A model generated the notes under the pieces. That model was not told the DNA's origin. It made no database searches and saw only the letters and a list, made by a program, of their open reading frames with translations. The translations under genes were made by a program, and so were the position numbers. DNA of 64,000 nt, from the NCBI GenBank assembly GCA_019057385.1, contig JAHQJS010000004.1, forward strand, positions 32,001 through 96,000, written 5' to 3'. Shown piece by piece: positions 51,239-53,486 of the stretch (positions within the stretch are counted from its first letter, which is position 1; each line of letters opens with the position of its first letter). This DNA comes from Candidatus Borrarchaeum weybense. GTDB taxonomy: Archaea > Asgardarchaeota > Sifarchaeia > Borrarchaeales > Borrarchaeaceae.

Positions 51239-51289
51239 GTAGTAAATAACTGATTTTCAGTCCCAGGCGCATATCGACGATTTTATGTT

Positions 51290-51806
51290 TCATTCCATAA
51301 TAGTTTCAAGGATAACATGGGCAGAAGTCTTTTTAACTCCTGAAATTGCTGCAAGGTCTTTTAGAAAAGAGTCTAACTTAGCACGTCCAACCTGTGCAAT
51401 CAAATCTAGTTCTGATCCAGTCACCCGAAATAACCGTTGTGCTCTTAACGCCTTAATTTGGTCGTATGCTTCTTTTCGTCGTTCAGGATCGATCTGTATA
51501 AACACGAATGCTTCAGTTACAGATTCGCCAAGGGCTTCCATGGCTTTGTTTGTGAGGTCTATAAAGCCTCTACCAGTGCGGATAAAATCTATGTCTCTTA
51601 GCTTTCTTAGGTGGTTGGATAGGGCCTGACGGGTTATACTTAATTCATCACTCAGTTCATTTTGAGTTAAGACAATGGTGTGAACCTTTACGCTTTTTCA
51701 GGCACCTTAGAGCGGGAAGATCAACTCAAGTGGTGATTCCTGCAGCGTAAAGTTTTTTCAAGATCTGTAATTGTCTATCTGTAATTTTAACAACATTGCT
51801 GGCCAT
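51290..51806 (-). CDS. HTH/Lrp-AsnC-family transcription regulator, 158 aa, in two exons (51806-51737 and 51696-51290)
   Basis: GGAGG SD plus ATG at 51806. Spliced product MASNVVKITDRQLQILKKLYAAG|KSVKVHTIVLTQNELSDELSITRQALSNHLRKLRDIDFIRTGRGFIDLT..., then an AsnC/RAM domain (AFVFI, RVTG..DLI). Confidence 0.85.
51697..51736 (-). other. 40-nt bulge-helix-bulge mRNA intron
   Basis: Exon stem CUUUACGCU/AGCGUAAAG, central helix CAGG/CCUG, bulges AAU and AAA, intron stem CACC/GGUG; excision restores the frame. Confidence 0.85.
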
Positions 51807-52101
51807 GTTATATCCTCCGTTATTCTTGTTTACATGGCATTAAAATGGAATTTACATATTTACACATTTAATTATTTATTTGTAAAAAAAAGCTTACATA
51901 TTAAAAAAGTTGTGCAAGTTTTCAAATCAAAAACTGATTCTGATGTCAATATTATGATTATTTATAAAACCGTGAAATTATTTACGAAATTCCAAGTTTT
52001 ATGATAATCATATATCAATTATAATAAGCATGTAAAAAAAGAAAAAAAGAGAGGTTTGATGTCAATACCAAAGATGCAATGGACACTTTTTTTGAGATTT
52101 G

Positions 52102-52400
52102 GTGACCTACCTCGTGCGAAAGCCTCGAGGCTTCCTGCTTCAACGACAGACTCGATCCCCTTGCGGGTTACGGAGGTCTTATCTCCACAGGCTTAACATC
52201 CCTACGCCCCGTAGGTACTGCTAACGGTCGTGATGCAATCGGAGTATGCACCTTATCTTCAAGTGTGCGCATGATCCCTCCAATTGTTATTGATACCTTT
52301 CTCATACTACAGACCCCTCGATGCACGTGATGAAAGTTAACGCAAATTACCGCAACTCATCACCACGCTGAAGCTGTGGTGATTTCTTGCTTAACTACTC
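52102..52400 (-). mobile_element. Non-autonomous IS200/IS605 derivative (about 299 bp)
   Basis: Right end GAAGCAGGAAGCCTCGAGGCTTTCGCACGAGGTAGGTCAC. Left-end hairpin ATCACCACAGCTTCAGCGTGGTGAT, preceded by TTTAC. Confidence 0.75.
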
Positions 52401-52639: not shown

Positions 52640-52921
52640 ATGCCAGAAAGTAACATCATATACGTCGGTTCCAAACCAGTCATGAACTATGTACTCGCAG
52701 CTATCACTATATTTCACGGCAATATTAAGGAAGTCTTGATTAAAGCAAGAGGACGTGCAATCAGCCGCTCCGTAGATGTTGCAGAGATAATAAAAAACAA
52801 ATTCTTAACGGATATTAAGGTGAAAAGTATAACAACAGGAACAGAAATGTTAAGAACAGAAGATGGGAATGAATTTAATACCTCAACGATCGAGATTATC
52901 TTGGAAAGAGGAGGCGACTAA
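52640..52921 (+). CDS. albA: DNA/RNA-binding protein Alba
   Basis: [29 protein letters not shown]. Confidence 0.97.
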
Positions 52922-52982
52922 TGGATATCTTCGAAATATCCACAAAGAGATATGGACGATTCAGTAGCGGGAGAGAGTTAAC

Positions 52983-53486
52983 ATGAAAGGACCCTTTTGC
53001 AATTTCTGTTTACAGACAGGTATTCTCTGTGGTAAGTGCCAATCTCTTATTGATTCAGGAGAACTTACTAACGTTGATATCAGTGTCGCAATGGCGCTTA
53101 ATAAACTGGAGCAAAGACATAATGAACTAAAAGATATTACATTCTTTCGTGCAGTCGAGGTTGGTTCATTAATCATTGTATTAGTTGGAGAAAATGATTT
53201 GTCAGCAATTCTTGGACATCGTGGGAAAGTCATTAAAGAACTTGAACAAAATCTTAAGAAAAAGATTCGTGTTCTCGAAACTTCATCCTCTACAGGAAAG
53301 TTGGTTGAAGATTTGCTAGCTCCCGCTGAAATAGCAGGTATTAATACTATCTGGCTTCCAGACGGCACAAAAGTAAAAAAAGTTAGAGTGCGTGGACAAC
53401 GTGGAAAACTGCCTGCATCTGTGGATACCCTTGAAGATGTGGTCCAAAAACTAACGAATGAACCTATTCGCATTGTCTTTGAGTGA
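52983..53486 (+). CDS. Archaeal NusA-like KH-domain protein with N-terminal Cys cluster
   Basis: CNFC..GILCGKC, LGHRGKV KH motif, GINTIWLPDG. Confidence 0.8.
   Translation: MKGPFCNFCLQTGILCGKCQSLIDSGELTNVDISVAMALNKLEQRHNELKDITFFRAVEVGSLIIVLVGENDLSAILGHRGKVIKELEQNLKKKIRVLETSSSTGKLVEDLLAPAEIAGINTIWLPDGTKVKKVRVRGQRGKLPASVDTLEDVVQKLTNEPIRIVFE

What the first reader, a model, noticed from the sequence alone, without database searches (positions are those of the whole stretch)
51697..51736. Possible splice-gated regulatory switch, analogous to HAC1/XBP1
Seen: the intron length is not a multiple of 3, it carries stops, and it lies before the DNA-binding helix, so regulator synthesis would depend fully on splicing. 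The 3' site is slightly imperfect (G-A next to the bulge), which could make cleavage tunable. Established: eukaryotic HAC1/XBP1 transcription-factor mRNAs are activated by non-spliceosomal excision and tRNA-ligase joining, but they are cut by Ire1, not EndA. Inference: tRNA-splicing capacity (EndA/RtcB) could set the level of this regulator. This is an analogy, not a claim of homology.
Basis: inference. Interest (0 to 1): 0.75.

Follow-up and report, generated by a model that had tools for sequence, protein, structure and literature searches.

The report
tRNA-type intron splitting an Asgard regulator gene
A 40-base intron of the kind archaea normally cut out of tRNAs really does interrupt a small transcription-regulator gene of an Asgard archaeon, but it looks like a young, lineage-restricted and probably routinely spliced insertion, and nothing found here shows it working as a regulatory switch.

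Summary
Observation confirmed. On the minus strand (ATG 51806, stop 51290) an Lrp/AsnC-type regulator gene is interrupted after codon 23 by exactly 40 nt (51736-51697). [quoted passage not shown] Removing it gives a 158-aa protein whose junction (AAG|KSVKVH) matches intronless orthologues (SGKSVKVH), which lack exactly these 40 nt. Both exons are under purifying selection, so the intron must be removed from the RNA. The genome (Borrarchaeum-like, Sifarchaeia) has two EndA paralogues and RtcB.

The "switch" reading is not supported:
- The intron occurs only in one shallow clade (10 assemblies or contigs, 5 variants). It is absent from the sister group (about 91% identical), from Ca. Sifarchaeum and from about 77 other orthologues.
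- Only the BHB core is conserved; the loop drifts.
- The structure is strong rather than marginal.
- No Ire1-like RNase was found.
- The same genome carries BHB introns in housekeeping genes. I verified cbf5 and saw that TBP is interrupted. Earlier notes of this scan list TBP, rfcS, rrp41, SecY and uL6, and similar mRNA introns in other archaea.

Splicing itself could not be observed. Most likely this is a constitutively spliced, recently gained intron: a new member of the cbf5-type mRNA intron class.

The parts
51814..51818 (-). Shine-Dalgarno-like GGAGG, 7 nt upstream of the start codon
   Evidence: Read directly. Conserved in intron-bearing and intronless alleles.
51737..51806 (-). Exon 1: ATG plus 23 codons plus the first base of codon 24. 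Encodes helix 1 of the winged HTH.
   Evidence: Among intron-bearing alleles only synonymous changes occur here. Matches the N-termini of intronless orthologues.
51697..51736 (-). 40-nt BHB intron. Carries an in-frame TGA for the exon-1 frame (51728-51726) and a TGA closing the exon-2 frame (51700-51698).
   Evidence: An exact 40-nt gap in intronless orthologues. Same length and site in 10 assemblies or contigs. A GAA repeat at both ends allows four equivalent DNA placements that give the same product.
51686..51752 (-). Whole BHB motif. Outer helix 51752-51744 with 51694-51686; G51743.A51695 mismatch; central helix 51742-51739 with 51702-51699; 5' bulge 51738-51736; inner helix 51735-51732 with 51706-51703; loop 51731-51707; 3' bulge 51698-51696.
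   Evidence: MFE and centroid fold. Pair probabilities 0.94-1.0 in contexts of 81-431 nt, apart from one outer pair at 0.74. 96.5% of cells paired in 5 variants, against 24-47% when the partners are slid.
51290..51696 (-). Exon 2: last two bases of codon 24 through the stop codon (51292-51290). Encodes HTH helices 2-3, the wing and the RAM (AsnC_trans_reg) domain.
   Evidence: Pfam hits. PDB relative PH1519/FL11, E 5e-13. 25-27 synonymous nt changes against 2 nonsynonymous codons between intron-bearing species.
51539..51541 (-). Met76 codon (ATG). It is the first start codon in the exon-2 frame, and gene callers start an 83-aa RAM-only ORF here.
   Evidence: ATG in all intron-bearing alleles; Leu (CTC/CTA/TTA) in every intronless orthologue checked. 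No SD upstream. Database entries P0015 and P0018 are this 83-aa ORF.
52640..52921 (+). Context: divergently transcribed Alba gene, a conserved neighbour of this regulator family
   Evidence: Pfam Alba, E 4e-22. Alba lies upstream and divergent in 39 of 80 orthologous loci.

Best explanation
This is a genuine archaeal bulge-helix-bulge intron inside the coding sequence of a single-copy Lrp/AsnC (feast/famine) type regulator of a Borrarchaeum-like Asgard archaeon. The pre-mRNA folds so that the last 16 nt of exon 1 pair with the 3' end of the intron and the start of exon 2. The two-subunit splicing endonuclease EndA cuts after the second base of each 3-nt bulge, and RtcB joins the exons and probably circularises the 40-nt intron. 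The mature mRNA encodes a 158-aa wHTH-RAM protein. The intron was gained once, recently, on the branch leading to one shallow clade, in a lineage whose tRNA genes are unusually intron-rich according to a 2026 preprint and in which at least cbf5 and TBP are also interrupted. It is most likely spliced constitutively and is a neutral or selfish passenger rather than a dedicated control device. Shown: the anatomy, the exact indel, a junction matching orthologues, purifying selection, clade restriction, and presence of the enzymes. Inferred: RNA-level excision, the enzymes responsible, and constitutive splicing.
For: - The exact 40-nt indel coincides with the BHB cut sites.
- The spliced junction AAG|KSVKVH equals SGKSVKVH of intronless orthologues.
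- The gene is single-copy in the genome.
- Selection: own allele against G002, 28 synonymous nt and 2 nonsynonymous codons; exon 1 has 1-3 synonymous and 0 nonsynonymous changes.
- Ten independent intron-bearing assemblies or contigs exist, with 5 sequence variants. Seven of the 8 variable intron positions lie in the loop, and the one helix change keeps a G.U pair.
- The intron clade is monophyletic (98/91), nested among intronless sequences and sister to an intronless group, so a single gain suffices.
- The intron is absent from G003, G005 and about 77 other orthologous loci.
- Two EndA-domain genes and RtcB are present.
- BHB pair probabilities are 0.94-1.0, apart from one outer pair at 0.74.
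- cbf5 of the same genome carries a 35-nt BHB intron whose removal restores GHGGTLDPGVTG, and TBP is split over three reading frames.
Against: - No RNA read or contig was seen across either the spliced or the unspliced junction, so excision is inferred, not observed.
- There are no compensatory (two-sided) base changes, because the clade is too shallow.
- 'Constitutive' rests on analogy with introns in essential genes and on the stability of the structure, not on measurement.
- The G.A mismatch and the clade-specific Leu76-to-Met change are not explained by this reading.
Confidence: 0.7

Rival explanations
1. Splice-gated switch. The amount of functional regulator is set by condition-dependent EndA/RtcB splicing, as HAC1/XBP1 is set by Ire1 and the tRNA ligase.
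For: Synthesis of a DNA-binding protein is strictly dependent on splicing. The intron is not a multiple of 3 and causes early termination, as for XBP1. A ribosome terminating at UGA, three codons into the intron, would sit on the BHB, so translation and splicing could compete (inference). There is a G.A mismatch beside the 3' bulge.
Against: The intron is confined to a shallow clade and absent from the closest sister group and all other orthologues. The loop sequence drifts and holds no conserved regulatory element. The BHB is strong in every context and no competing fold is predicted. No Ire1/KEN-type sensor nuclease is present. Similar introns lie in essential housekeeping genes of the same genome, where inefficient splicing would be costly.
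Confidence: 0.12
2. Two-product gene. Unspliced mRNA yields an 83-aa RAM-domain-only 'demi' protein from Met76, and spliced mRNA yields the full regulator. The ratio of the two would modulate oligomer composition.
For: Met76 (ATG 51541) is the first start codon in the exon-2 frame. It is present in all intron-bearing alleles, while an otherwise invariant Leu (CTC/CTA/TTA) occupies this column in intronless orthologues. Stand-alone RAM proteins of 75-92 aa are natural and have solved structures (2cvi, 2zbc, 2e1a, 2djw).
Against: No Shine-Dalgarno motif precedes this ATG, whereas the true start has GGAGG. Leu to Met is a conservative, single evolutionary event on the same branch, so the association has n=1. 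There is no expression evidence.
Confidence: 0.05
3. The gene is not spliced. It would be a decaying pseudogene or a split gene, or the insert would be an assembly artefact.
For: Gene callers find only the 83-aa ORF. No spliced transcript was seen.
Against: The same 40 nt, with point differences, occur in 10 independent assemblies or contigs. There is strong purifying selection on both exons, including the 23-codon exon 1. The SD and start codon are intact. BHB geometry this precise at an indel is expected by chance at about 1e-4.
Confidence: 0.04
4. Translational bypass (ribosome hopping over 40 nt) rather than RNA splicing.
For: A stop codon lies shortly after a GGA codon, followed by a hairpin, which superficially recalls phage T4 gene 60.
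Against: There is no matching landing codon before AAA-AGC (the preceding triplet is UGA). Such bypass is not known in archaea. The BHB geometry and the presence of EndA and RtcB explain the gap fully.
Confidence: 0.01

Closest known systems
cbf5 pre-mRNA BHB intron of Crenarchaeota (Watanabe 2002; Yokobori 2009, PMC2738675)
   Same: A short BHB intron inside a protein-coding sequence. It is removed by the tRNA-splicing endonuclease and ligase, shows lineage-specific gain and loss, and has no known function of its own.
   Different: Here the host gene is a transcription regulator and the phylum is Asgard. The clade carrying it is much shallower, a genus-level subclade rather than two orders. 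Splicing has not been shown experimentally here.
BHB intron in the 5' UTR of Haloferax volcanii HVO_1309 (Schwarz 2020, PMC7714728)
   Same: An mRNA substrate of EndA. A possible effect on expression was proposed because the mRNA level falls when endA is repressed.
   Different: That intron lies in an untranslated region and does not interrupt the reading frame. Here splicing is needed to make the protein at all.
HAC1 / XBP1 / bZIP60 unconventional splicing
   Same: A non-spliceosomal, endonuclease-plus-RNA-ligase (RtcB in metazoa) excision of a short intron, not a multiple of 3, from a transcription-factor mRNA. The unspliced mRNA does not give the active factor.
   Different: Those are cut by the stress sensor Ire1 at twin 7-nt stem-loops and are conserved across large eukaryotic groups. 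Here the motif is a BHB for EndA, no Ire1/KEN nuclease is encoded, the intron is young, and no condition dependence is known. This is a functional analogy only.
BHB introns of Asgard tRNA genes (preprint 10.64898/2026.10.13.758758) and the other interrupted genes of this genome
   Same: [quoted passage not shown]
   Different: The host is an mRNA rather than a tRNA. The 40-nt sequence has no second copy in the genome, so no donor intron is identified.
Lrp/AsnC (FFRP) regulators such as Pyrococcus PH1519/FL11
   Same: An N-terminal winged HTH plus a C-terminal RAM domain.
   Different: The family has an extra loop of about 8 residues between helix 1 and helix 2 and a conserved RTGRGFIDLT linker. 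Its ligand and target genes are unknown.

Membership tests
Archaeal BHB (EndA-type) intron | [quoted passage not shown] | tested here: met
   CAGG/CCUG helix between bulges AAU and AAA. Invariant in 5 variants.
Archaeal BHB (EndA-type) intron | Flanking helices on both sides (hBHBh') | tested here: met
   Inner helix of 4 bp. Outer helix of 9 bp (8 bp in some alleles) after one G.A mismatch. The mismatch makes the motif slightly relaxed.
Archaeal BHB (EndA-type) intron | Cutting in the bulges restores the functional sequence | tested here: met
   The product matches intronless orthologues residue for residue at the junction, and the indel is exactly 40 nt.
Archaeal BHB (EndA-type) intron | Splicing endonuclease and RtcB ligase encoded by the host | tested here: met
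   Two EndA paralogues, each with N- and C-terminal domains. RtcB at 582 bits.
Archaeal BHB (EndA-type) intron | Excision seen in RNA (spliced junction or circular intron) | not testable with these tools
   The RNA-library contigs available did not reach the site. See Tried and rejected.
HAC1/XBP1-type regulated unconventional splicing | Ire1-type sensor kinase/RNase (KEN domain) | tested here: not met
   PF06479 gives only a sub-threshold hit (21.5 bits), which lies in a Pelota/eRF1-family protein.
HAC1/XBP1-type regulated unconventional splicing | Twin stem-loops with 7-nt loops at the cut sites | tested here: not met
   The cut sites lie in 3-nt bulges of a BHB.
HAC1/XBP1-type regulated unconventional splicing | Condition-dependent splicing that controls the factor's output | not testable with these tools
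   No RNA data across the junction.
HAC1/XBP1-type regulated unconventional splicing | Conservation of the intron across the lineage that uses the switch | tested here: not met
   Present only in one shallow clade. Absent from the sister group, from Ca. Sifarchaeum and from about 77 other orthologues.
Lrp/AsnC (FFRP) transcription regulators | N-terminal wHTH plus C-terminal RAM/AsnC_trans_reg domain | tested here: met
   Pfam HTH_24/MarR_2 and AsnC_trans_reg. PH1519, E 5e-13. AlphaFold model with three helices, a wing and a beta-alpha-beta-beta-alpha-beta fold (pLDDT 74).

The most novel reading that the evidence does not exclude
The intron turns one gene into a splicing-dependent two-output device. 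Spliced mRNA gives the full wHTH-RAM regulator. Unspliced mRNA gives, from the clade-specific Met76, a RAM-only 'demi' subunit that co-assembles with the full-length form and modulates it. Regulator activity would then track EndA/RtcB capacity, or the race between ribosomes and splicing. This would be an archaeal counterpart, built on the tRNA-splicing machinery, of XBP1u/XBP1s-type isoform control.
Probability: 0.06. Interest if true: 0.85.

Novelty: new member of a known kind. Interest (0 to 1): 0.5.

Why it matters
In the published literature read here, the only BHB intron inside an archaeal coding sequence is that of cbf5 (PMC7714728). A second host-gene family, in an Asgard archaeon and in a transcription factor, adds to the evidence that tRNA-type splicing acts on messenger RNAs in the closest prokaryotic relatives of eukaryotes. 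It also shows that standard gene callers mis-annotate such genes: here they call only an 83-aa fragment. The comparative series, with a shallow intron-bearing clade next to an intronless sister group, gives a clean, datable example of intron gain in a protein gene. The regulatory-switch idea would be important if true, but it currently rests only on analogy.

Tried and rejected
1. RNA evidence. It gave no contig over 51474-51875 and no joint. Only one RNA-library contig lay on the 3' end of the gene (51268-51443). Splicing could therefore be neither seen nor excluded.

2. Assembled spliced transcript as a protein. The 5.8-billion-protein search returned no full-length protein at 98% identity or more. 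The intron-bearing alleles appear only as 83-aa ORFs (P0015, P0018).

3. Spliced junction as DNA or cDNA in JGI metagenome contigs. There were 0 hits. The unspliced exon 1-intron junction has 9 hits, of which 5 are this gene. This says nothing about RNA.

4. Genome-wide search for further mRNA introns. I combined a BHB scan, an ORF-repair filter and paralogue support. The scan recovered the regulator and cbf5 introns, but the filter was far too noisy (1344 candidates, mostly adjacent-gene fusions or repeats), so I dropped it.

5. Donor of the intron. blastn-short against the own genome found no second copy, only a 20-nt 95% match (E 0.02) that I did not pursue.

6. Covariation. There are no two-sided changes, because the clade is too shallow.

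7. Rfam found nothing at gathering thresholds in the window. ARAGORN found no tRNA in the window, probably because the tRNA genes here carry several introns.

8. Ire1/KEN domain. The only weak hit is in a Pelota-family protein.

9. The idea that exon 1 changed (Asn-Ser to Ala-Ala) to create the helix is weakened. An intronless relative (P0010, L109) already has nearly the same exon sequence.

10. Ribosomal hopping was considered and rejected because there is no landing codon.

Full report
**What is there.** The window is AT-rich (35.5% GC) and belongs to contig C4 of a 4.18-Mb, 8-contig genome. Titles of related records place it among Asgard archaea of the Sifarchaeia. The nearest named relatives are Ca. 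Borrarchaeum yapensis and Ca. Sifarchaeum marinoarchaea. The finding lies on the minus strand. A gene starts at ATG 51806, 7 nt behind a GGAGG, and runs 23 codons. It then reads Ile-Thr-Thr-stop, with TGA at 51728-51726. A second frame opens right after TGA 51700-51698 and runs to the stop at 51290. That frame has no ATG, GTG or TTG before ATG 51541. Exon 2 matches positions 18-48 of HTH_24 and the AsnC_trans_reg (RAM) domain. The first helix of the winged HTH is missing from it.

**The intron.** Removing 51736-51697 (40 nt) joins the two frames into a 158-aa protein. The RNA around the insert folds, as MFE and centroid, into the following elements (dG -24.1 kcal/mol, z -3.3 against shuffles):
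- a 9-bp exon-exon helix
- a G.A mismatch
- a 4-bp helix CAGG/CCUG
- a 3-nt bulge on each strand (AAU and AAA)
- a 4-bp inner helix CACC/GGUG

This is the hBHBh' geometry that the archaeal splicing endonuclease cuts. Cutting after the second base of each bulge gives exactly the 40-nt excision. Pair probabilities of the helices stay at 0.94-1.0, with one outer pair at 0.74, when 81 to 431 nt of transcript are folded. The site is therefore predicted to be a strong substrate, not a marginal one. In my own scan of the genome, motifs of this relaxed quality occur at 2.7e-5 per position-and-length combination (42,178 hits).

**Comparative proof.** The regulator is single-copy in the genome, and orthologues occur in 17 of 41 related genomes. 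The gene is continuous in G003 (Ca. Sifarchaeum marinoarchaea, 90% identical), G005 (Ca. S. subterraneum) and all more distant Asgard orthologues. The DNA alignment shows a gap of exactly 40 columns at the predicted site. The predicted junction ...LYAAG|KSVKVH... matches ...LYNSGKSVKVH... of the intronless genes.

A scan of one genome per prokaryotic species found 506 relatives across Asgard archaea, Thermococci, Bathyarchaeia and Methanomethylicia. Of the 80 best, only two carry the extra 40 nt: Ca. Borrarchaeum yapensis and Promethearchaeota DZ3M.366. Further intron-bearing copies came from GCA_029856345.1, a Logan assembly and five JGI metagenome contigs. That makes ten copies with five sequence variants, all 40 nt long at the same site.

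A maximum-likelihood tree puts all intron-bearing sequences in one clade (98/91). That clade is sister to an intronless group about 91% identical (P0002-P0007) and is nested in intronless Sifarchaeia sequences. One gain on a short branch suffices.

**The gene is alive.**
- Between intron-bearing species there are 28 synonymous nucleotide changes against 2 nonsynonymous codons.
- In the 23-codon exon 1 there are 1-3 synonymous and no nonsynonymous changes.
- Eight intron positions vary. Seven of them are in the loop, and the one in a helix (C to U) keeps a G.U pair. The bulges and the central helix never vary.
- The clade is too shallow for compensatory changes, so covariation adds nothing.

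A pseudogene or an assembly artefact is therefore very unlikely, and the 40 nt must be removed from the RNA.

**Machinery and genomic setting.** The genome encodes two EndA paralogues of 208 and 223 aa, each with both EndA domains. It also encodes RtcB. From the sequences, one paralogue keeps the Tyr/His/Lys catalytic pattern and the other lacks the His. I read this as an (alpha-beta)2 enzyme. That is my inference from memory of the catalytic triad, but it is in line with a 2026 preprint. [quoted passage not shown]

Earlier notes of this scan list BHB introns in TBP, rfcS, rrp41, SecY, cbf5 and uL6 of this same genome. I checked two of them:
- cbf5 has a 35-nt BHB insert whose removal restores the catalytic motif GHGGTLDPGVTG.
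- The TBP gene is spread over three reading frames, with KLVCT/GAKSEE and LENS/EPEQFPG separated by short inserts.

So the regulator intron is one of several mRNA introns in an intron-rich lineage.

**What the protein is.**
- The closest solved relative is the feast/famine regulator PH1519/FL11 of Pyrococcus (E 5e-13).
- An AlphaFold model of the intronless orthologue (pLDDT 74) shows helix 1 at residues 10-22 and a family-specific loop at 23-34.
- The same model shows helix 2 at 35-42 and the recognition helix at 46-58, followed by a wing and a RAM fold.
- The intron sits in codon 24, so it does lie before the DNA-binding helices.
- The family is usually divergently adjacent to Alba (39 of 80 loci) and to a family of about 172 aa that gave no Pfam hit (41 of 80). 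I take that family to be the counterpart of the window's NusA-like KH protein, which occupies the same position; this is inference. In Thermococci a Clp1-type P-loop kinase is also adjacent (27 of 80).
- This synteny is the only hint about targets.

Everything that would single this intron out as a control device is missing.
- Its loop drifts.
- The BHB is stable and has no predicted competitor.
- There is no Ire1-like nuclease; the only weak KEN hit is a Pelota-family protein.
- Comparable introns sit in essential single-copy genes, where splicing has to be efficient.

I therefore rate a constitutively spliced, recently gained intron at about 0.7 and a regulated switch at about 0.12.

Two observations remain unexplained and keep a more interesting reading open. 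First, the invariant Leu at position 76 is Met (ATG) only in the intron-bearing clade. This creates the start of an 83-aa RAM-only ORF on unspliced RNA, though without a Shine-Dalgarno motif. Second, a ribosome that starts at the strong SD would terminate three codons into the intron, on top of the BHB, so translation and splicing must compete in time.

**Relation to what is known.** Published cases of BHB introns in archaeal mRNAs are cbf5 of Crenarchaeota (PMC2738675) and a 5' UTR intron in Haloferax (PMC7714728). The latter paper states that cbf5 was the only other example. This is a new member of that kind: a new host gene and a new phylum. It meets all sequence-level criteria of a BHB intron and lacks only RNA-level proof. 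It works somewhat like HAC1/XBP1 in outcome, since it is a transcription-factor mRNA that needs non-spliceosomal splicing. It fails the defining features of that system that could be tested.

**Limits.** Splicing was not observed. The available RNA-library contigs did not cover the site, and no assembled spliced form was found. The decisive experiments are RT-PCR or RNA-seq across the junction under different conditions, and in vitro cleavage with the genome's own EndA.

Noticed in passing
L106:1797-1831 (minus strand; G000 contig C5, about 277852-277886): The cbf5 gene of the same genome carries a 35-nt strict BHB insert (CUCU/AGAG central helix). Its removal restores the catalytic TruB motif GHGGTLDPGVTG. 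This is an Asgard counterpart of the crenarchaeal cbf5 intron, at a site I did not compare with the crenarchaeal one.
   Followed up: partly
L103:1480-2130 (G000 contig C6, about 542650-543300): The only TBP gene is spread over three reading frames. Short inserts separate LENS / EPEQFPGLIYRM and KLVCT / GAKSEE in repeat 2, and an in-frame extra segment follows KLVCT in repeat 1. This is consistent with three small introns. I did not delineate the exact BHBs.
   Followed up: partly
window 52100-52310 (and 52132-52191, minus strand): A GC-rich stretch lies in the unusually long regulator-Alba intergenic region. Contigs from all four laid runs, two of them RNA libraries, cover it at 88-100% identity with differing flanks. 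A weak, sub-threshold RAGATH-18-like match is present (25 bits against a cut-off of 44.9, E 0.03). It may be a small structured RNA or part of a mobile element.
   Followed up: partly
window 51539-51541 (minus strand): Residue 76 is Met (ATG) in all ten intron-bearing copies, but an invariant Leu (CTC/CTA/TTA) in every intronless orthologue examined. It starts the 83-aa RAM-only ORF that gene callers annotate.
   Followed up: partly
window 52640-53486; loci L023-L102: There is conserved synteny across archaeal phyla. The regulator is divergent from Alba (39 of 80 loci) and from a family of about 172 aa with no Pfam hit (41 of 80), which I take to be the counterpart of the window's NusA-like KH protein. 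In Thermococci a Clp1-type P-loop polynucleotide-kinase homologue is also adjacent (27 of 80).
   Followed up: partly
L018:1156-1782 (+) and L019:1420-2091 (-): Two EndA paralogues are present. One has the Tyr/His/Lys catalytic pattern and the other lacks the His. This suggests an (alpha-beta)2 broad-specificity splicing endonuclease.
   Followed up: partly
L021/L022 (G000 contig C1, 13917-15008): A second, shorter RtcB-like gene lies in a 409-aa open frame. It matches profile positions 1-88 and 132-426 only, so it lacks about 40 profile positions.
   Followed up: no
L109:104-577: An intronless relative (P0010, 82% identical) already has almost the same exon-1 sequence (CTTTATGCTGCAGG) that forms the BHB helices in the intron-bearing clade. 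The exon context may therefore have pre-dated the insertion, or this lineage may have lost the intron precisely.
   Followed up: no
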